Virus record (IMG/VR): IMGVR_UViG_3300047359_000671
Span: 27,310 to 91,309 of that record
Direction: 5' to 3' (one strand)
DNA length: 64,000 bases
From: a virus
This document shows positions 7,124 through 29,562 of the stretch, piece after piece. A program made the position numbers and the translations under genes. Within the stretch, counting starts at the first letter, position 1; the number at the start of each line of letters is the position of its first letter. A model generated the notes under the pieces. It ran no database searches. It was not told the DNA's origin and saw only the letters and a list, made by a program, of their open reading frames with translations.

Positions 7124-10100
7124 TTATTCGCCTTGTAATTCAGATTGTGATAATTGTTTAATAATTGATACATCGCTTGATGTAGTGACCGACATGAATA
7201 TTTCATTCAGTTCACTAGAGATACTTAGCAATTTTGTAAATGTGTTTCCTGAGTACTTAGGTGTAATTACTACACTTGAAATATAATCTCCTAGTTCTTT
7301 GTGCAAGTATGCCGCAAGTTCTGAGAAGTAGAATGTAGCACCAAAGTCCCAGTTATCAATTGAAAAATATTCATTGACTTTACTTGATACCATTGCTTTT
7401 GTTTCACTGTCTGTGTATCCGGAACCTAGTTTCTTAATTACTTTAAATACTGCTTGGTTTTCTGGTTCAGCATAAGCCCCGAATAGATACTTAAACTGTA
7501 CCGGAATATAACTAATGTGGTCTGAGATTGATGCTTTGCTTTCAATACTAGACATTGTTTGTGATAGTTCATAACTATTAGGTGCAACTGGTAATGCTCT
7601 TGTAAAGTTACTTGATATCCAATTATTAACATTTCTAACATAGTCGGATGATAATACATACACATCAACAATGTTACTTGTGCTTGGGTCTATTCGTTTA
7701 TCGGTATCTGCATAATGGTCCCATCTAAAACTCATAAACACATCTTTAGCAAATGATATGCCTTCTACCACTCTATACGTAATGCCAGAAGTTGTCATAG
7801 AACCATCTGCATTGATTGTTTTCTGTGTCAGCAACAACCAACCATCACCTAATCTTATATACCATTCTGTATTAGTTGTGTTATACCATAACGTAGCAGT
7901 TGGCGGGAGAGAAACATCAGGCAGTGGGCCTGAGCCAGGAGTTGCAAAAGCAACACGTGATGCACGTTCATACGTTATATTATTTTCTGAGTATTGCTCT
8001 AATACCATATGATTATTTTCAGCAATGTCAAGCATCGCATATGGGTAATTATTTACGTTAAATGTTAATAATTTTACTTTGGTATTGTCTACATACCCTT
8101 CTGGTGTCAGATATTTGTCATATACATAACTTGCATCAGTATCGTATGTAGTTGTTTGAGTACTATTCATAACTGATAAATCAAATGATGCTTTTACTTT
8201 AACACCGAAACCAACAAGTGATGTCGTACCTGATGCATCACCGATGTAAGCATCTATCAACGTACCTACTCCTGGGTCAATAGTCCAGAAAATAACTTTA
8301 TAATTGTTACCACTTAGATGCGTTACTGTTGTATGTACAGTACTAATGATTGCCTGTGTTGATGAATTTTTAAGAATTAAGTTATCAGTGGTCAATGCTG
8401 TTGAACTTACTAAATCTAATTCTGCGTATGCCCATTGCTTAAAATATATGTCTAAGTCTAAACTATCAATTCGTATGTCCAATGCTGGTAATGTAAATGT
8501 ATACTGATTACCAACAACCGATACCACATATTCCCATTGCACACCCGGGTCGCCAATTGCCGCAGATTGTCTGCCGGAGGCGTTATTACCTCCTGGCAAC
8601 TCATCACTGTCTAAGAATGCAAAATTCTTGTCATTCTGTTGTTGACTAAAATATGTTGTCGAAACTTCACCTTTGAATCCACGTGACACTAAGTCTGTAT
8701 CACTCATTGTCGTATATGATGAGTTTGCATTTGCCCAATCACCATCGGTATTAATCAAAATTTGTGTACCGTCAGATAACGCATATTCTGTTGTACTCAT
8801 TGCTTGTACATCATCTGTAATAGAAGTTAGTGATGAAATGTACTGTGTAATGTCATCGACTTCTAAACTTATTTTGTATTCTGGAGATTCTCCGATATCA
8901 CGCCAAGTAGGGTCAACAGGGTATACAACTTCTGTGGTAGTATCGATTGGGTATTCAATTCCTTCTGGAGTTACTAAACAAGACGTTACATTTGTATTTG
9001 AGACTGCTGGGTTATCCGTATTACCGTCTAACTCATAAAATGTATAATTTACATCTGCACCAGTGTGTTTAAATTCAGCATCAAATGTGGCGCCGCCTGA
9101 GCCGTCATCTACATAGTTAGATATTGTAGTATAACCGATAGTTACATCACCTTCAACTGTAGTAGAAGGTTGTGTCGATGATACCCCGTCTGCGCCTTTA
9201 TAATTTATTAAAATTAAATCACGCTCTGCAAGACTAGTTTCGTTATCAATTACCATATCACTATTACTGTAGTAAAATTTAACTTGGTCACGGCTTTCAA
9301 ATGCAATCTTTTTGCCAGGAATAGTAGCAACATATTCTGATTCCATGTCTCTTAGGCCTGAGGTATATGTAAATGTGATTTGGATATCTGATACACCGCC
9401 AGATAATGCCCAGCCCCAAAGACCTGCCTCAAATGTATAATACAATGTAAATGTAGACACACCATTGTTAACTTGCGTTTTAATTTCAGTAATTTCACTT
9501 TCTGTGAATTTAGTTCTAAATCCTCTGACTATCGTTTTTATAGTTCCATCTTCTGGGATATATTCATTGAGAGTATATGGTGTTGAAGAATCTGTTACTT
9601 TTGTCCAGATATCTTCTCCACTTGCCGTTAATAATTGTAAATAATCGCCATCGTATAATGTATCAGTTAGGAGTGGTGAATTTATTTGCATAGAATTTGT
9701 TGTACCCACTGTATATACTACATCAACGTTAGTGATTGTTACTGTCGCCGCATCTTTGTTTGTATGATAATATTTGTTCACTAAACTAGGATGCTTAATT
9801 GCTTTCACTAGAACATTACGAATAAAGTTATCAGCATCACCACTCAATTTATTAAAACTCAAAGACATTTTAGTAGTTTCGTTTTCAACAAAAATACTTC
9901 CATCTGTACCAGTAACACTCAAGTTTGAGTGATGACCTGTAGTGTCATCCATCTCAAAGAAACGAGATGAACCTGCAAAGGTCGTGTTGACTGCTTTAGT
10001 TTTTCTAACTACATTGTTTCCTAATGTAAGAGGATAAACGTTATAGTCCTGGGCATTTACCATTCTATCTTGTGCATAATAACTTCTTGGTGCTACACGT

Positions 10101-24577: not shown

Positions 24578-26360
24578 GAATATAACAGTACGAAATTTTA
24601 TGAGTGTCGGTAATGTCACTCAAGCCGTAACATTAGAACAAGATAATCTAACACTTGTGCTAGGTAATAACTTAGATTTAGGTGGAGATGGTTCTCGTAA
24701 TGGTACAGGTAAGACTACACTAATTAATGCATTGTCATATGGATTATACGGCAATGCTCTTACTAATATTCGTAAAGATAACTTAATTAATAAAACAAAT
24801 GGCAAAGGAATGCTTGTCACTATTGATTTCGAATACAATGGAAGTCAATACCGAATTGAACGTGGTCGTAGACCTAATGTCTTTAGATTCATCAAAGACG
24901 GGATTGACTTAAATGATTCACATGATGCCGCTCAAGGCGAAATGCGTCAAACACAAACTGAACTTGTAGATATTATTGGTATCTCACATGCAATGTTTAA
25001 ACATGTTGTGGCTCTAAACACATACACAGAACCGTTCTTATCATTACGTGCCGCAGACCAACGTGAATTAATTGAAGAACTTCTTGGTATCACTGAACTT
25101 TCTAAGAAAGCAGAAAAACTTAAAGAAGCAATCAAAACAACTAAAGACCAAATCAAAGATGAAGAATACAATCTTAAGTCTGTAGAAGATGCAAACTCTC
25201 GTATTCTAAAATCTATTAAAGATATTGAACGCAGACAACGTATCTGGAATGAAAAACATGACACTGAACTTTCTGAACTTGAAACAGGTCTTGATGCGTT
25301 ATCGCATGTAGACATTCAAACAGAAATTGCAAATCACCAAGCATTAATTACATACAACGAACAATCTACTAAATTAACCGAAGCAAAACGTTGGATTACA
25401 AGTATCGAAGCAGATGATGAGAAACAAGAAAGTCTAATTTCAAAATTAAAAAATGAAATTAAATTACTTGAAGACCATAAATGTCATGCGTGTGGACAAG
25501 AATTACACGATGGTAAACAAGAAAAAATTCTTACATCTAAGCAAGAAACTATGAGAGAAGCATCAATGCAAATCTTAAGCAACAGTTCTCAATTAGCAGA
25601 ACACTTAGAAGTAGTAAATGAAATTGGTGAACTTGGTGATAAACCTGCAACGTTCTATCAAAATCTTACAGATGCATACGAGCATCAAAATTCCGTAAAA
25701 AGTTTAGAAGAACAGATAGAAAAGATTAAGAATACAGAAGACCCTTATGCAGAACAAATCGAAGATATGCGTAATGGTCATTTAGAAGAATTAGATTACT
25801 CACACATGAATACACTGATTTCATTACGTGAACATCAGGAGTTTCTAATCAAACTATTAACGAATAAAGACAGTTTTATTCGTAAAAAGATTATTGACCA
25901 AAACTTAAACTATCTAAATTCACGTTTAGATTTCTACTTAGAGAAGTTAGGATTACCACATGATGTTAAATTCTTAAGTGACTTAACAGTAGAAATAACA
26001 GAACTTGGTAGAGATTTAGACTTTGATAATTTATCACGTGGTGAACGCAATAGACTTATCTTAGGTTTAAGTTGGAGTTTTAGAGATATATTTGAATCAT
26101 TGTATAGTACAATTAATGTGTTATTTGTAGACGAATTGATTGACAGTGGTTTAGATACTAATGGTGTGGAAGCCGCATTAGCAGTTCTTAAGAAGATGGT
26201 ACGTGAAAGAAATCGTAGCATATTCTTAGTTTCACACCGAGAAGAACTACAAGGACGTGTATCAAATGTTCTTAACGTAGTTAAAGAGAATGGGTTTACT
26301 AACTTCTCACAAGAAGATGAACCAGTTGACCCTGGAATCGAGTTGGACACAATTATTTAA
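24564..26360 (+). CDS. gp46: Recombination ATPase subunit (Rad50/SbcC-like)
   Basis: Walker A NGTGKT, zinc hook CHACG, signature LSRGE, Walker B FVDE; likely TTG start at 24564 after GAGAGGA. Confidence 0.94.
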   Translation: MLKIKNITVRNFMSVGNVTQAVTLEQDNLTLVLGNNLDLGGDGSRNGTGKTTLINALSYGLYGNALTNIRKDNLINKTNGKGMLVTIDFEYNGSQYRIERGRRPNVFRFIKDGIDLNDSHDAAQGEMRQTQTELVDIIGISHAMFKHVVALNTYTEPFLSLRAADQRELIEELLGITELSKKAEKLKEAIKTTKDQIKDEEYNLKSVEDANSRILKSIKDIERRQRIWNEKHDTELSELETGLDALSHVDIQTEIANHQALITYNEQSTKLTEAKRWITSIEADDEKQESLISKLKNEIKLLEDHKCHACGQELHDGKQEKILTSKQETMREASMQILSNSSQLAEHLEVVNEIGELGDKPATFYQNLTDAYEHQNSVKSLEEQIEKIKNTEDPYAEQIEDMRNGHLEELDYSHMNTLISLREHQEFLIKLLTNKDSFIRKKIIDQNLNYLNSRLDFYLEKLGLPHDVKFLSDLTVEITELGRDLDFDNLSRGERNRLILGLSWSFRDIFESLYSTINVLFVDELIDSGLDTNGVEAALAVLKKMVRERNRSIFLVSHREELQGRVSNVLNVVKENGFTNFSQEDEPVDPGIELDTII

Positions 26361-26375
26361 AGGAGGTGAAAACCA

Positions 26376-26552
26376 ATGAGCATACACGAACAAATTGTAG
26401 AACAATACGAAGCATACCTAAGCGAACACGAAGCGTGGGAAACAAAGGGTGTAAAGGCTGCGGCCGCTAGAGCAAGAAAGGCTTTAGGTGAAATTGGAAA
26501 ACTTACGAAAGAAAGACGTAAAGAAATCCAAGAAAAGAAAAATAATATGTAA
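26376..26552 (+). CDS. Histone H1-like (Hc1-family-like) small DNA-binding protein, 58 aa
   Basis: Below the ORF-track cutoff; perfect AGGAGGT RBS; MSIHEQIVEQYEAYLSEHEAWETKGVKAAAARARKALGEIGKLTKERRKEIQEKKNNM. Confidence 0.75.
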   Translation: MSIHEQIVEQYEAYLSEHEAWETKGVKAAAARARKALGEIGKLTKERRKEIQEKKNNM

Positions 26553-26570
26553 AAAATGTTCAAAAAGGTG

Positions 26571-26600
26571 TTGACAATTGTAATACTTTTGTGTTATAAT
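26571..26600 (+). promoter_or_regulatory. Strong sigma70 promoter
   Basis: TTGACA-N18-TATAAT with TG extension and A-rich upstream element. Confidence 0.85.
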
Positions 26601-26606
26601 TAATAC

Positions 26607-26723
26607 ATAATCAAAGACGCTAAGTGTCTCCTCTCAACCTCTCTCAACGAGGCGTCTAAGATTAGTTTCTCAACACAGAGAACAAAAAACTAAAAGCCCG
26701 GTTCTAGTAACTGGGCTTTTTTT
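26607..26723 (+). ncRNA. Candidate phage sRNA (~115 nt)
   Basis: Bounded by a consensus promoter and an intrinsic terminator; no ORF; two hairpins with CU-rich loops. Confidence 0.65.
26694..26723 (+). terminator. Rho-independent terminator
   Basis: AAGCCCGGTT-CTAGT-AACTGGGCTT followed by a T run. Confidence 0.85.
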
Positions 26724-27209: not shown

Positions 27210-27416
27210 ATGAAGATATACTTAATCATTACTTTCGTTCTCATTAGTGGTTCAGAACAAATTATGCCACAGTTCCCACCAAAAGAGGTTACAACTATGG
27301 AGATTTGTGAACGTAAAAAAGCGGCAGCGGAAGAATACTTTACATATCAATTAGAGAATAAACCAGTTAAGTCTATAGCAGGATTTAACGTACAGTGCCA
27401 GGAAATAGAATCATAA
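27210..27416 (+). CDS. Hypothetical secreted/membrane-anchored protein
   Basis: ATG 27210 lies 5 nt after late box CATAAATA (27197-27204); hydrophobic N-terminus and two Cys. Confidence 0.6.
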   Translation: MKIYLIITFVLISGSEQIMPQFPPKEVTTMEICERKKAAAEEYFTYQLENKPVKSIAGFNVQCQEIES

Positions 27417-27848
27417 TTTTTTACTAATGCTTTCTAAGTATTCAGTTAATATTTTAGAACTTCCTACTCTAACATTAATAATCCCGTTGTAATATTCATC
27501 GGTTTCTAACACTCGTCGGTCAAACTGTTCTTTTGCTTCGACATAACTCAAAGCACCACGACTCGGACAGTAGTGTAGAATTTCACGCATAAACTTGTTG
27601 GGACCTAATTTTTTTACATCAGCAATTAAATGTTCAGAAGAACCCCAATAGTCTCGCCAATCACTCTCTTTAAACCCACGTCTTTTGTTTTTTCTTCCTT
27701 TAAGAGGTGGTTTCGTTGTTTTAAATCTTGCTAACTTCTTACCCACATACTTTCGGTTGTTTTCAAGATTCGTAATTAAATACACAAATCCCTCAACATC
27801 TTCGGGTAATTCATTTACCACTTCTCCGTTATATTTCCAATCGCTCAT
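27411..27848 (-). CDS. GIY-YIG-type (Seg-like) small endonuclease
   Basis: GFVYLITN...RKYVGKK, YWGSS, REIL, E, YYNG motifs. Confidence 0.8.
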   Translation of the reverse strand: MSDWKYNGEVVNELPEDVEGFVYLITNLENNRKYVGKKLARFKTTKPPLKGRKNKRRGFKESDWRDYWGSSEHLIADVKKLGPNKFMREILHYCPSRGALSYVEAKEQFDRRVLETDEYYNGIINVRVGSSKILTEYLESISKKL

Positions 27849-27869
27849 AGTATTCCATTTGTTTTATTC

Positions 27870-28450
27870 TAAAAGGTCTAAAGACCTAATTCCTTCATAA
27901 ATTTCATTCGCTTTCGCTCAATCAATTTATTCGGTATTTCTTTTATATCTATAATATACTTATATATTCTATTATTATGGTATTATAATATTATCTTTTA
28001 TACTTGTTCCGTTTAGAAGCCATAATTGCCCTGTTGCCAGGACAATAAAAAAATGGCGGAAACTTGTTCCTTGCTCATCAGCCTCTGTGTCTAAGTTAGC
28101 CTCCAGCAAAGGCGAGGTCGGTTGGCGATTCCCTCATCACTTAGTATTGCGTCTTTCGACCCAACGGCACACTATTCAACTCACACAGTTCAACTTGAAT
28201 AATGCAACTAGATTGCCTAGTTCGGTTTGTACAAATGTACGGTATTCTCTGGTCATCCTAATATCCTTTAGAGATATGGATGTTTTATATTATAAACAGT
28301 CTTTTGTGGTTTACGAGAAGAATGTAGGAGTTCATCCCTACTAGTCTGAACGTATGTAGAATATACGCCCTCAATCCCGGAACGGCAACCCGCTCAACAG
28401 TCCCACTATATCGATTATATTAGTTTTCATATTAGTCCCCATTGTTGAGC
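27870..28450 (-). ncRNA. Candidate large structured ncRNA
   Basis: More than 10 stems, GNRA tetraloops, G-U pairs consistent only with the minus strand, a long-range closing helix and a possible pseudoknot; no credible ORF. Confidence 0.65.
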
Positions 28451-28500
28451 CATATTAGTTATAAAAAGATGTATTAGTTTTATATTAGTTTTATATTAGT
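28418..28500. repeat. Six direct TATTAGT repeats (iteron-like)
   Basis: Copies at 28418, 28430, 28453, 28472, 28483, 28494; the last three have an 11-bp period. Confidence 0.85.
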
Positions 28501-28504
28501 ATTG

Positions 28505-28726
28505 TTAGATTATAGGCGTCCCAGCCTGTTTGCTCATTTCGAAATTCTCATTGACAATTTCGTTTAGATAGTCTATGTGACCTGCGGGCATTTCGTGTAT
28601 TTCACTAATGCTAACCCCACCTCTCATATACCAACTTAACTTTAACATATTCTTATGTAGTTTGTCAAGTCTTTTTTGATATTTTTCTTGTTTTTCTGCA
28701 ATTTCTTCTGGGCTGGCGTTAACCAA
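28505..28726 (-). CDS. gp51-like baseplate hub/tail assembly chaperone C-terminal part, probably expressed by -1 frameshift from the upstream ORF
   Basis: L.WYMRGG.S..E...M motif; weak TTG start with no RBS; -1 frame relative to 28732-29562. Confidence 0.7.
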   Translation of the reverse strand: MVNASPEEIAEKQEKYQKRLDKLHKNMLKLSWYMRGGVSISEIHEMPAGHIDYLNEIVNENFEMSKQAGTPII

Positions 28727-28744
28727 CCAGCCTAAGAAAAATTT
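28711..28744 (-). other. Programmed -1 ribosomal frameshift signal
   Basis: In-frame slippery heptamer A AAT TTT (28744-28738), 5-nt spacer, hairpin GGCTGG...CCAGCC (28732-28711). Confidence 0.75.
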
Positions 28745-29562
28745 ACAGGATTAATCTCAAGCGTTATTTCGTCTTTATGTCCACAATCAGCACATGTAAA
28801 TTCAAACTTTGATAAATCGTCAGGCTTTTTGCTTAACTCTTTTACTTTACTTTGAATTGTCTTTACAATAGGTGCAGGGATATCATTTAGAAATTGTCTA
28901 ATTTCTTCTTCATCAACCACATCACCTTCTGGTGTTTCTATTCTAGCAATAGACGTTGTAACTAAATCAATATTCTGAATTGCAACTTTTCTAAAGCCGT
29001 CTGAAAAAGTCTTGGCTAAAGTTAGTTCGTCTTCTTCTTCATTTACTGATTTACGAACACTTTCAAGTATTCGTCTTTGTTCAACTTCCATTAATGCTAA
29101 ACGTGTTATGCTTTCAATTTTTGCTGGTTGAACGTGAATTTTTAAATCATCGAATTCAATCGGTTCAACTTCTGAGATATCAGGGAATTTATCTAATAGA
29201 TAGTTGATATCTATATTATAATCTCCCTGCGCTTTACACTCTGAACAGGTGTGAGTATGTGTAATATCTTTTCCGTATGTTGCATATTTGATAGCAAGAA
29301 ACAACGCTTCCACATCAATGTTACACAATTGTCTTGCGTCTTCGATAGATGGAACACAACTTTGAATAAGATTGATTAAAGCCTCACCATTTAGTAATGC
29401 ATCTGGGTTCTCTAATGAAATCTCATCCACTGCCGTCATGGGCAAAATACCGATTTCATCTAATATCGTTTTATCTATTTCCGGGTTAAACTTCCCACCA
29501 GTTGGTATTTGCACATACAACTGTGGTTTACGGAAATATTTTGATAATAAGTTTTTGCTCAT
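28732..29562 (-). CDS. gp26: Baseplate hub assembly protein, T4 gp26-like
   Basis: YFRKP.LYV..P.GG, PMTAVDEI, PDALLNG, LAIKYATYG and two CxxC pairs. Confidence 0.78.
   Translation of the reverse strand: MSKNLLSKYFRKPQLYVQIPTGGKFNPEIDKTILDEIGILPMTAVDEISLENPDALLNGEALINLIQSCVPSIEDARQLCNIDVEALFLAIKYATYGKDITHTHTCSECKAQGDYNIDINYLLDKFPDISEVEPIEFDDLKIHVQPAKIESITRLALMEVEQRRILESVRKSVNEEEDELTLAKTFSDGFRKVAIQNIDLVTTSIARIETPEGDVVDEEEIRQFLNDIPAPIVKTIQSKVKELSKKPDDLSKFEFTCADCGHKDEITLEINPVNFS

What the first reader, a model, noticed from the sequence alone, without database searches (positions are those of the whole stretch)
27411..28500. Large structured non-coding RNA directly upstream of a GIY-YIG-type nuclease gene: candidate RNA-nuclease system or RNA-primed origin
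Seen: a ~650-bp ORF-free gap in a densely coding genome, with a GC-elevated core. On the minus strand it folds extensively: GCTCAACA/TGTTGAGC (28450-28443 with 28399-28392), GGGCGTAT/ATACGTTC, GTAGG/CCTAC, CATCC-ATATC/GATAT-GGATG, AACTAG-GCAAT-CTAGTT (28222-28206), ATTCAA/TTGAAT, GTC-GAAA-GAC (28160-28151), a junction closed by CTAAGT/ACTTAG, and ATTGTCCTG-GCAA-CAGGGCAAT (28046-28025). A long-range helix GTTCCG (28383-28378)/CGGAAC (28011-28006) closes a ~380-nt domain, and GTTGG/CCAAC may form a pseudoknot. GNRA loops and G-U pairs work only on the minus strand, the same strand as the nuclease gene ~160 nt downstream. Established: small endonucleases with an upstream structured RNA are the layout of OMEGA/HEARO systems and of intron-associated homing modules; T4 origins are primed by R-loops. 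Inference: this is an undescribed phage ncRNA that partners the nuclease, is a ribozyme, or is a replication primer RNA.
Basis: partly seen in the sequence, partly recalled or inferred. Interest (0 to 1): 0.88.

Follow-up and report, generated by a model that had tools for sequence, protein, structure and literature searches.

The report
New knotted RNA gene, marine phages
The gene-free stretch is a real gene for a folded RNA of about 390 bases found only in uncultured marine giant phages; it does not depend on the nuclease gene beside it, and its job is unknown, though its lead-in carries the same repeated signal as the phage's DNA-binding-protein message.

Summary
Window 27849-28504 is a 656-base ORF-free gap whose minus strand encodes a conserved structured RNA. 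The RNA has a 94-nt AU-rich leader with six CUAAUA boxes. Its core is 390 nt (28410-28021) with 18 helices and two pseudoknots. An AU-rich spacer and a 3' hairpin module follow. Across 41 distinct homologues, 93.5% of pair cells are paired and 42 of 100 pairs show compensatory changes; slid controls give 34-46% and 6-14. No Rfam family matches.

The RNA-nuclease reading fails. A 92%-complete 342-kb relative has the RNA but no GIY-YIG gene, and 73 GIY-YIG loci lack the RNA. In outgroup lineages a PD-(D/E)XK nuclease occupies the same slot. One locus has the RNA in another context.

The RNA is best read as an autonomous gene of a jumbo-myophage lineage distantly related to PA5oct. Its leader boxes recur only in the gp32 mRNA leader of the same genomes, which suggests gp32-linked control. 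The function of the core is unknown.

Other agents of this scan reported the same family on other DNA.

The parts
28732..29562 (-). gp26-like baseplate hub gene, the conserved upstream neighbour
   Evidence: Pfam PF12322 E 2.5e-18 and phrog_150. It lies upstream of the RNA in 58 of 59 distinct loci with enough flank.
28505..28726 (-). 73-aa ORF directly upstream of the RNA, with no family hit; its stop codon abuts the first leader box
   Evidence: It is conserved at 51-99% aa identity in relatives. A promoter-like TTGACA-N18-TAAAGT lies inside it at 28668-28639.
28411..28504 (-). AU-rich leader (22% GC) with six CUAAUA boxes at 28499-94, 28488-83, 28477-72, 28458-53, 28435-30 and 28423-18
   Evidence: This is the only cluster of three or more boxes in the 91-kb genome record. 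All 43 homologous loci have 3-6 boxes, against a background of 0.02-0.23 per 130 nt. The same boxes fill the gp32 mRNA leaders of related genomes.
28306..28410 (-). 5' domain of the core. UAUA (pairs with 28024-28021) and GUGG/CCAC enclose the hairpin GAGCGG-GUUG-CCGUUC and a three-way junction, CGGGA/UCUCG, that holds hairpins GGGCGUAU/AUACGUUC and GUAGG/CCUAC.
   Evidence: Helices 1-6. Helices 3, 5 and 6 have 4, 5 and 2 pairs with compensatory changes. Helices 1, 2 and 4 are invariant or change on one side only.
28254..28282 (-). Hairpin CAUCCAUAUCU..GGAUAUUAGGAUG with the conserved apical motif CUCUAAAGG
   Evidence: Helix 7: 6 of 11 pairs have compensatory changes and 92% of cells are paired.
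28172..28240 (-). Variable hairpins: GUAC-AUUU-GUAC, AACUAG-GCAAU-CUAGUU and AUUCAA..UUGAAU. The loop of the last (CUGUGU, 28188-28183) forms pseudoknot 1 with ACACAG (28090-28085).
   Evidence: Helices 9-12. The pseudoknot helix 12 is 95% paired with 4 of 6 pairs compensatory. In relatives the sequences differ but the hairpins are kept.
28084..28165 (-). Most conserved 3' core domain (51% GC). GUUGG (28165-61) forms pseudoknot 2 with CCAAC (28125-21). The domain also holds GUC-GAAA-GAC, CUAAGU/ACUUAG, GAGG/CCUC and GCCUU/GAGGC.
   Evidence: Gapless 100-column alignment of 36 sequences: 98.4% paired, and 12 of 23 pairs compensatory against 0-1 in slid controls. Covariance model R1 scores 116 bits, E 5e-29, here.
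28021..28046 (-). Hairpin AUUGUCCUG-GCAA-CAGGGCAAU followed by UAUG, the 3' strand of the closing helix
   Evidence: Helices 18 and 1.
27939..28020 (-). AU-rich spacer (18% GC), variable in length and poorly conserved
27874..27938 (-). 3' hairpin module: a long interrupted hairpin capped by GAGCGAAAGCGA, then the near-invariant hairpin UAGGUC-UUUA-GACCUA
   Evidence: 9 of 17 predicted pairs have compensatory changes in 31 sequences. The module is kept whether GIY-YIG or PD-(D/E)XK follows.
27411..27848 (-). 145-aa SegE-type GIY-YIG nuclease gene, a neighbour and not an obligate partner
   Evidence: PF19835 E 1.8e-34. Median 85% aa identity across loci whose gp26 is only 60% identical. It is absent from the 92%-complete RNA-bearing genome G014.

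Best explanation
The gap is an autonomous gene for a large structured non-coding RNA. The RNA is a vertically inherited element of a lineage of uncultured marine jumbo myophages.

The transcript (minus strand, roughly 28500 to 27870) has four parts:
1. An unstructured leader with 3-6 CUAAUA boxes.
2. A 390-nt core of 18 helices, closed by pairing of its two ends and locked by two pseudoknots.
3. An AU-rich spacer.
4. A 3' hairpin module.

Shown:
- The fold is conserved by compensatory change.
- The RNA does not need the GIY-YIG gene.
- The gene behind it is an exchangeable slot that holds GIY-YIG, PD-(D/E)XK, or radical SAM plus GIY-YIG.
- The boxes occur almost only in this leader and in the gp32 mRNA leader of the same genomes.

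[quoted passage not shown] On that reading, free gp32 (or one shared RNA-binding factor) coats the leader. The amount or availability of the RNA would then be tied to how much single-stranded DNA the infected cell holds, that is, to replication and recombination.

The core then acts in trans as a protein-binding scaffold or self-assembling particle. Its actual target is unknown.
For: Structure:
- 100 pairs counted on 41 distinct sequences are 93.5% paired, against 34-46% when partners are slid.
- 42 pairs have changes on both sides, against 6-14 in slid controls.
- 0 of 500 shuffles reach the observed values.
- The core 3' domain is 98.4% paired, with 12 of 23 pairs compensatory.
- The 3' module has 9 of 17 compensatory pairs.
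- Invariant G-U pairs and the fold z-scores fix the strand.

Autonomy:
- In most relatives a TTGACA-N17-TAGTAT promoter sits just before the boxes, 108-145 nt ahead of the core.
- Locus L409 carries promoter, boxes and core in an unrelated context.

Independence from the nuclease.

Lineage-wide presence: all 5 large contigs that carry this lineage's gp32 also carry the RNA.

Boxes:
- Unique cluster in the 91-kb record.
- Present in 43 of 43 loci.
- A blind scan for two phased boxes returned, apart from RNA leaders and scattered unrelated AT-rich contigs, about 20 leaders of PF08804 gp32 genes.
- In three genomes totalling 690 kb, 12 of 15 double boxes lie in the RNA leader or the gp32 leader.
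- The architecture of the T4 operator is taken from PMC535899.

RNA libraries: contigs from four marine metatranscriptome runs contain the RNA region.
Against: - No experiment shows a discrete transcript, its ends, or gp32 binding.
- The RNA-library contigs could stem from carried-over DNA. One contig runs on from the RNA into gp26, so read-through from the late operon is possible.
- In the window itself no clean promoter lies between the 73-aa ORF and the boxes.
- gp32 is not on the window's own 91-kb fragment, so the box link rests on relatives.
- The boxes could bind another factor, be RNase sites, or act at the DNA level.
- 50 of 51 distinct loci with enough flank do have a nuclease gene directly downstream. 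A functional tie to that slot is therefore not excluded.
Confidence: 0.5

Rival explanations
1. The whole 630-nt element is a cis-acting 5' leader that controls translation or stability of the downstream nuclease mRNA. Ancestrally that gene was a PD-(D/E)XK resolvase-like enzyme that would be toxic if made too early. The precedents are T4 gene 49 and gene 32, which are controlled through their leaders.
For: - A nuclease gene follows on the same strand in 50 of 51 distinct loci, 20-40 nt after the invariant last hairpin.
- The 3' module is kept whichever nuclease follows.
- gp32-type boxes are a translational operator in T4 (PMC535899).
- An automated survey reported unnamed candidate RNAs upstream of resolvase and RusA genes (PMC10690425).
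- One RNA-library contig spans the 3' module and the start of the GIY-YIG ORF.
Against: - A 390-nt doubly knotted core is far beyond what RBS control needs.
- The core is separated from the gene by a variable, unconserved AU-rich spacer.
- The boxes lie 500 nt from the start codon, not over it.
- The regulated gene would have been swapped for an unrelated one while the leader stayed.
- L409 has the RNA with no nuclease behind it.
Confidence: 0.15
2. The locus is a replication origin. A promoter drives a structured pre-primer RNA whose fold governs formation of a persistent RNA-DNA hybrid in the adjoining AU-rich tract. This would work like ColE1 RNA II or like the R-loop origins of T4, with gp32 coating the displaced strand.
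For: - The layout is promoter, then AT-rich leader (22% GC), core, an 18%-GC tract and stable GA-capped hairpins.
- The boxes are shared with the single-strand-binding-protein message.
- The neighbours are recombination genes: a resolvase-like nuclease and gp46 (SbcC-like).
- From my own knowledge, T4 oriF lies beside genes 25-26-51.
Against: - T4-type origins need no conserved RNA fold.
- Covariation with G-U pairs points to a folded RNA product, not to a hybrid.
- The AU-rich spacer is not conserved in sequence or length.
- No replication data or skew analysis supports it; I ran no skew test.
- The gp32 leader has the same boxes and is plainly an mRNA leader.
Confidence: 0.12
3. The RNA is the working partner (guide, scaffold or activator) of the adjacent nuclease, as the first reader proposed by analogy with OMEGA/HEARO systems.
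For: - A nuclease gene is directly adjacent in 50 of 51 loci.
- Two unrelated nuclease families occupy exactly the same slot, which could mean either can serve the RNA.
Against: - G014 (92% complete) has the RNA and no GIY-YIG homologue.
- 73 GIY-YIG loci at 69-84% identity have no RNA within 2.5 kb by covariance model.
- In Melnitz the gene sits behind nrdB.
- PA5oct keeps the PD-(D/E)XK gene in synteny but has no detectable RNA homologue.
- L409 lacks a neighbouring nuclease.
- There is no HEARO or other Rfam hit.
- No variable guide-like segment was seen.
Confidence: 0.06
4. The element is a ribozyme or a decayed self-splicing intron that once carried the homing endonuclease gene.
For: - It is large and pseudoknotted, with GNRA loops, and lies next to a GIY-YIG gene of the kind found in T4 introns.
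- A short stretch, GUUCAGACUAG, recalls the group I 'R' element. This is my recollection, not a test.
Against: - No group I, group II, RNase P, GIR1 or small-ribozyme model scores at E below 10.
- The order of helices does not fit the P3-P8/P7 topology.
- The 73-aa ORF ends at a conserved stop, and the genes beyond the nuclease are convergent, so there are no exons.
Confidence: 0.05

Closest known systems
GOLLD (RF01998) and ROOL (RF03087), large ornate RNAs of phages and prophages (cryo-EM: PMC12286853)
   Same: It is a large, multi-helix, pseudoknotted, phage-borne non-coding RNA. It is defined by covariation, found mainly in metagenomes, and has no known function.
   Different: There is no sequence or structure homology (cmscan finds nothing). 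The core is smaller, at 390 nt. It lies in a lytic jumbo-myophage structural/recombination region rather than beside tRNAs in prophages; no tRNA is in the window. Oligomerisation is untested.
Translational operator of T4 gene 32 mRNA (PMC535899; PMC3014915)
   Same: It has an unstructured AU-rich stretch with a short repeated motif, next to a folded element. The same motif fills the leader of the gp32 genes of this lineage, up to the Shine-Dalgarno sequence.
   Different: Here the boxes precede a non-coding RNA, not a start codon. The motif is CUAAUA rather than UUAAA/UAAA. The folded element lies 3' of the boxes. Binding by gp32 is inferred, not shown.
HEARO / omega-RNA of IscB-TnpB (OMEGA) systems
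   Same: A structured RNA of a few hundred nucleotides is encoded directly upstream of a small nuclease gene.
   Different: The nuclease here is GIY-YIG or PD-(D/E)XK, not RuvC/HNH. The RNA and the nuclease occur apart. There is no Rfam HEARO hit. No guide segment or transposon ends were seen.
Group I introns carrying GIY-YIG homing endonucleases (T4 td / I-TevI) and free-standing Seg endonucleases
   Same: The nuclease has a SegE-type GIY-YIG domain. It has a sporadic, mobile-looking distribution and is more conserved than its flanks.
   Different: The RNA interrupts no gene, matches no intron model and persists without the endonuclease. The 145-aa protein has no room for the C-terminal DNA-binding domain of Seg enzymes.
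ColE1 RNA II pre-primer and T4 oriF/oriG R-loop origins
   Same: The order is promoter, then structured RNA, then AT-rich tract, and the locus lies among recombination and replication genes.
   Different: There is no evidence of hybrid formation or initiation. T4 origins do not use a conserved fold.

Membership tests
Any Rfam 15 family (group I/II introns, RNase P, tmRNA, GOLLD, ROOL, OLE, HEARO, GIR1, small ribozymes) | Score at or above the family's gathering threshold in cmscan | tested here: not met
   There are 0 matches in the whole window at gathering thresholds. At E up to 10 on 27700-28700 the only hit is a chance snoRNA match in the AU-rich spacer. ARAGORN finds no tRNA or tmRNA.
OMEGA/HEARO-type RNA-guided nuclease system | RNA encoded next to an IscB/IsrB/TnpB-type (RuvC, with or without HNH) nuclease | tested here: not met
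   The neighbour is GIY-YIG (PF19835) or PD-(D/E)XK (PF24608).
OMEGA/HEARO-type RNA-guided nuclease system | RNA and nuclease always co-occur | tested here: not met
   The RNA occurs without GIY-YIG in G011-G014. GIY-YIG occurs without the RNA at 73 loci and in Melnitz. The RNA occurs without either nuclease next to it in L409.
OMEGA/HEARO-type RNA-guided nuclease system | A variable guide segment at one end of an otherwise conserved RNA | tested here: inconclusive
   The variable parts are internal hairpins and the AU-rich spacer. No segment looked like a guide, but no target search was made.
Group I intron with homing endonuclease | Interrupts a host gene whose exons are rejoined | tested here: not met
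   The 73-aa ORF ends at a stop conserved in all relatives. The DNA beyond the nuclease gene encodes convergent genes.
Group I intron with homing endonuclease | P3-P8/P7 pseudoknotted core with a guanosine-binding site | tested here: not met
   No intron model scores. The strand order of the two pseudoknots differs from P3/P7.
T4 gene 32-type operator (leader only) | Unstructured AU-rich stretch with several copies of a short motif, next to a folded element | tested here: met
   There are six CUAAUA boxes in 82 nt of 22% GC, ending 8 nt before the core's closing helix. All 43 relatives have 3-6 boxes.
T4 gene 32-type operator (leader only) | The same motif forms the leader of the phage's own gp32 gene | tested here: met
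   This was met in relatives: G011-G015 carry 2-3 boxes between a 5' hairpin and the SD of a PF08804 gene, and 12 of 15 double boxes lie in the two leaders. It is not testable in the window's own fragment, which lacks gp32.
T4 gene 32-type operator (leader only) | Specific, cooperative binding by gp32 | not testable with these tools
   This needs binding assays.
Large ornate phage RNAs (GOLLD/ROOL kind, not family) | Several hundred nucleotides, many helices and pseudoknots upheld by covariation, no coding capacity | tested here: met
Large ornate phage RNAs (GOLLD/ROOL kind, not family) | Homo-oligomeric assembly | not testable with these tools
   This needs native gels or cryo-EM.
T4-type R-loop replication origin | Promoter followed by a DNA-unwinding element where the transcript stays hybridised | tested here: inconclusive
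   A promoter is present in most relatives, and AT-rich tracts lie on both sides of the core. There is nothing on hybrids or initiation.
Free-standing GIY-YIG homing endonuclease (for the neighbouring gene) | GIY-YIG catalytic domain | tested here: met
   PF19835 covers positions 1-123 of 123, E 1.8e-34.
Free-standing GIY-YIG homing endonuclease (for the neighbouring gene) | Sporadic distribution in varied contexts, and more conserved than its flanks | tested here: met
   The gene lies behind nrdB in Melnitz. More than 7,900 relatives were found. Median aa identity is 85% against 60% for gp26 in the same loci.
Free-standing GIY-YIG homing endonuclease (for the neighbouring gene) | C-terminal DNA-binding domain that gives site specificity | tested here: inconclusive
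   The protein is 145 aa and the catalytic-domain profile covers residues 4-124. No further domain was found. Longer forms were not searched.

The most novel reading that the evidence does not exclude
The RNA is a gp32-coupled structured RNA that takes part directly in phage DNA metabolism. It could be a folded pre-primer that sets up an origin, or a decoy or platform that buffers free single-strand-binding protein and hands it to the neighbouring recombination enzymes. This would be a role for a large RNA not known in any T4-like or jumbo phage.
Probability: 0.2. Interest if true: 0.9.

Novelty: new variant of a known kind. Interest (0 to 1): 0.74.

Why it matters
Large, intricately folded RNAs without a known job are rare. 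Each earlier class (GOLLD, ROOL, OLE, HEARO) later turned out to be biologically or structurally remarkable.

This one has several unusual features:
- It is confined to abundant, uncultured marine jumbo phages.
- Its fold is backed by dozens of compensatory changes.
- It is present in all five large contigs of its lineage that could be checked.
- It carries a leader element shared only with the message of the single-strand-DNA-binding protein.

That last point gives a concrete, testable handle: does gp32 bind it? It also hints at a link between a structured RNA and phage replication or recombination.

The work also corrects the tempting but wrong reading that this is an RNA-guided GIY-YIG nuclease. 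Instead, the neighbouring slot has seen one nuclease family replaced by another.

Tried and rejected
Contexts of the GIY-YIG homologues on the longest contigs could not be fetched that way, so I used the search for related loci and pattern scans instead.
- **blastn against 50,697 phage records** found nothing for the RNA part, only the GIY-YIG gene.
- **Close relatives by protein:** a gp26-anchored search with the single protein gave only two near-identical loci.
- **Chance pattern matches:** three hits of the 18-mer pattern (L088, L102, L128) were chance matches in GC-rich coding DNA and were dropped.
- **Bacterial and archaeal genomes:** the 18-mer hit 37 of them, about the number expected by chance. 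None matches model R1, so there is no cellular copy by this test.
- **gp32 on the window's own record:** gp32 was not found there, nor in five RNA-bearing fragments, by Pfam family or by protein. Five gp32-bearing fragments had no RNA and four of them had no gp46. The link was only made on larger contigs.
- **All-against-all scan for further covarying column pairs:** this was swamped by phylogenetic signal and gave nothing usable.
- **PA5oct:** R1 with filters off found nothing, Rfam found nothing, and its four published ncRNAs lie elsewhere (PMC7318152).
- **Reads:** only contigs of RNA libraries were on hand. They cannot give strand, ends or level, and the depth differences between the RNA and the GIY-YIG gene are not used as evidence of expression level.
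- **PMC10690425:** its supplement is not held. I therefore could not check whether one of its unnamed candidates upstream of resolvase/RusA genes overlaps this RNA.
- **First draft of pseudoknot 1:** it was one column out of register (34% paired) and was corrected.
- **Considered and dropped:**
  - tmRNA: two-piece forms exist in related marine phages (PMC9004378), but there is no T-arm, ARAGORN hit or Rfam hit.
  - RNase P: no conserved P4 sequences.
  - Hammerhead: the CUGAUGAG string is not conserved in relatives.
  - Late promoters as the meaning of the boxes: single boxes elsewhere in the window are at chance frequency.
Full report
**What is at the coordinates.** On the minus strand the window reads, in order:
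- a gp26-like baseplate hub gene (29562-28732; PF12322, phrog_150);
- a 73-aa ORF (28726-28505);
- 656 bases without a credible ORF (28504-27849);
- a 145-aa SegE-type GIY-YIG nuclease gene (27848-27411; PF19835, E 1.8e-34).

Beyond the nuclease gene the genes are convergent. The minus strand of the gap folds better than dinucleotide shuffles (z -2.78, with 0 of 100 shuffles as good). The plus strand does not (z -0.20). The core has 43% GC against 36% for the window, flanked by a 22% leader and an 18% spacer. Rfam 15 gives no match at gathering thresholds in the whole window, and nothing meaningful at E up to 10 in the region. ARAGORN finds no tRNA or tmRNA.

**Relatives.** Loci anchored on GIY-YIG homologues gave six relatives about 70% identical over the whole gap. 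A conserved 18-mer of the RNA then found 77 stretches in IMG/VR. Three of them were chance hits in GC-rich coding DNA. A longer pattern found 75 stretches in marine metagenomes. Further, more divergent copies lacking the exact 18-mer were found on large contigs. The 37 hits of the 18-mer in bacterial and archaeal genomes are the number expected by chance, and none matches the covariance model. The family is therefore known only from uncultured marine phage contigs.

**The lineage.** By gp46, the nearest cultured phages are the jumbo phage PA5oct (50.6% aa) and Sinorhizobium phage Phosso. The most complete relative is 342 kb, estimated 92% complete.

**Structure.** I curated a structure on a 43-sequence alignment (41 distinct sequences, 64-71% identical to the window apart from two near-identical copies). 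The core runs from 28410 to 28021 and has these elements:
- The two ends pair (UAUA/UAUG; consensus CAUA/UGUG), stacked on GUGG/CCAC.
- A 5' domain holds the hairpin GAGCGG-GUUG-CCGUUC and a three-way junction with two hairpins.
- A hairpin follows that carries the conserved loop CUCUAAAGG.
- Three variable hairpins come next.
- A highly conserved 3' domain and a terminal hairpin complete the core.
- Two pseudoknots lock it. GUUGG pairs with CCAAC inside the GAGG/CCUC loop. The loop of the AUUCAA hairpin pairs with ACACAG after the 3' domain.

The counts for this structure against controls:

| Measure | Observed | Slid-partner controls |
|---|---|---|
| 100 core pairs, cells paired | 93.5% | 34-46% |
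| 100 core pairs, pairs changed on both sides | 42 | 6-14 |
| 100 core pairs, covariation score | 0.282 | at most 0.075 |
| 3' domain (36 sequences, gapless), cells paired | 98.4% | 18-48% |
| 3' domain, compensatory pairs of 23 | 12 | 0-1 |

None of 500 shuffles reaches the observed values for the 100 core pairs. Behind an unconserved AU-rich spacer lies a 3' module of two hairpins (27938-27874) in which 9 of 17 pairs are compensatory. Invariant G-U pairs fix the RNA strand as the minus strand.

Nine of eleven are confirmed. The proposed closing helix GTTCCG/CGGAAC is paired in only 55.5% of cells, and its 5' strand belongs to two other helices. The 5' helix GCTCAACA/TGTTGAGC has no counterpart in relatives.

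**Is it tied to the nuclease?** Among 63 distinct cores, 58 of 59 with enough upstream flank follow gp26 plus the 73-aa ORF. Of 51 with enough downstream flank:
- 40 are followed by GIY-YIG;
- 10 are followed by a PD-(D/E)XK nuclease (PF24608);
- one is followed by neither.

In two of the GIY-YIG loci, L116 and L144, a radical-SAM gene lies between the RNA and GIY-YIG.

The PD-(D/E)XK state belongs to the more distant lineages, where gp26 is 38-49% identical to the window's. It is also the state in PA5oct, so it looks ancestral. Both flanks are the same in the two states, so GIY-YIG replaced PD-(D/E)XK as a cassette.

Four further results argue against a partnership:
- G014 (92% complete) has the RNA and the PD-(D/E)XK gene but no GIY-YIG homologue anywhere.
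- 73 loci with GIY-YIG homologues of 69-84% identity have no RNA within 2.5 kb by covariance model.
- In phage Melnitz the GIY-YIG gene sits behind nrdB.
- GIY-YIG is much more conserved than its flanks, at a median of 85% against 60% for gp26. That fits a mobile or strongly selected gene.

The RNA is therefore not a partner of the GIY-YIG enzyme. Locus L409 carries promoter, boxes and complete core between unrelated genes, which shows the RNA is a self-contained unit.

**The leader.** Six CUAAUA boxes lie in 82 nt just before the core. This is the only such cluster in the 91-kb genome record. All 43 relatives have 3-6 boxes, against a background of 0.02-0.23 per 130 nt. In most relatives a TTGACA-N17-TAGTAT promoter lies immediately upstream.

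Earlier notes of this scan said the same boxes occur in the gp32 leader, and I tested that independently:
- A blind scan of IMG/VR for two phased boxes returned RNA leaders, unrelated AT-rich noise, and about 20 loci with a shared layout. There, 3-4 boxes lie between a strong promoter with a 5' hairpin and the Shine-Dalgarno sequence of a 330-aa protein.
- That protein passes the Pfam gp32 cut-off.
- All five large contigs with this gp32 also carry the RNA, and both leaders carry boxes in each of them.
- In three of these genomes (690 kb in all), 12 of 15 double boxes lie in one or the other leader.

In T4, the gene 32 operator is a folded element followed by an unstructured stretch with UUAAA/UAAA repeats that gp32 coats cooperatively (PMC535899). 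By analogy, the boxes are probably the binding lattice for gp32 or for one shared factor. This step is inference. gp32 is not on the window's own fragment.

**Expression.** Contigs of four marine metatranscriptome runs include the RNA region at 99% identity or more. Pieces from related variants cover the conserved 3' domain. One contig runs from inside the RNA through gp26 to about 29614. This shows presence in RNA libraries and is compatible with read-through from the gp26 operon. It does not prove a discrete transcript, its strand or its ends.

**Interpretation.** The best reading is an autonomous gene for a large trans-acting structured RNA of a marine jumbo-myophage lineage. Its leader ties it to the gp32 regulatory circuit, and the function of its core is unknown. 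Rival readings, in order of weight:
1. A giant cis leader of the nuclease gene.
2. A structured pre-primer or origin.
3. A nuclease partner.
4. A ribozyme or decayed intron.

**Comparison with the known.**
- It works most like the class of large ornate phage RNAs (GOLLD, ROOL) but is not homologous to them.
- Its leader resembles the T4 gene 32 operator.
- It fails the tested defining features of OMEGA/HEARO systems and of group I introns.
- An automated survey of viral intergenic regions mentions unnamed candidates upstream of resolvase and RusA genes (PMC10690425). I could not check for overlap because the supplement is not held.
- Other agents of this scan reported the same family on other genomes. 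My results agree with them and add three things: the test against the GIY-YIG partnership, the nuclease-slot replacement, and the L409 exception.

Noticed in passing
window 28700-28745 (minus strand): The gp26-like ORF ends in AAATTTTTCTTAG, followed after a few bases by a GGCTGG..CCAGCC hairpin. The 73-aa ORF has only a TTG start. I did not test it.
   Followed up: no
window 27411-27848 and the same slot in L085, L087, L095, L131, L349-L353: The slot behind the RNA holds either a 145-aa GIY-YIG or a 176-181-aa PD-(D/E)XK nuclease (PF24608; PHROG calls it RusA-like resolvase), with identical flanks on both sides. GIY-YIG-bearing fragments lack the PD-(D/E)XK gene. GIY-YIG may be a homing gene that displaced it, or a non-orthologous, Slx1-like replacement of a resolvase.
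   Followed up: partly
L116:5209-6417 (also L144): A 402-aa radical-SAM protein gene is inserted between the RNA's 3' hairpins and the GIY-YIG gene in two contigs.
   Followed up: partly
L409 (RNA motif at 7830; contig Ga0208298_1000735): This is a complete copy of the RNA, with its own TTGACA-N17-TAGTAT promoter and boxes, but between unrelated genes. It ends in a different strong hairpin (AUGGAAAC-UUUA-GUUUCCAU). An HNH-like ORF lies 1.4 kb downstream.
   Followed up: partly
L368:1300-3450 (PA5oct NC_071039.1, about 75.7-77.85 kb): In the nearest cultured relative, the syntenic interval between the baseplate hub gene and the 'RusA-like' PD-(D/E)XK gene is 2.2 kb with only tiny doubtful ORFs and one antisense 150-aa ORF. 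It has no match to model R1 or to Rfam, and none of the four published PA5oct ncRNAs lies there. It might hold an analogous RNA.
   Followed up: partly
L163, L169, L172, L174, L181, L185 and others (gp32 loci): The gp32 genes of this lineage share a stereotyped leader: TTGACT-N17-TATAAT promoter, a 7-bp 5'-terminal hairpin, and 3-4 CUAAUA boxes, the last fused to the Shine-Dalgarno sequence (GGCUAAUAUAGGAG). This looks like a T4-style autoregulatory operator with a different repeat.
   Followed up: partly
window 26300-26650: In all four metatranscriptome runs the deepest contigs on the 3.7-kb stretch lie over the 58-aa ORF (26376-26552) and the bases just after it.
   Followed up: no
window 28639-28668 (minus strand): A promoter-like TTGACA-N18-TAAAGT with a TG extension lies inside the 73-aa ORF. 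It is conserved in those relatives that lack an intergenic promoter before the boxes (L085, L095, L114, L120). The conservation could also be due to the coded peptide.
   Followed up: no
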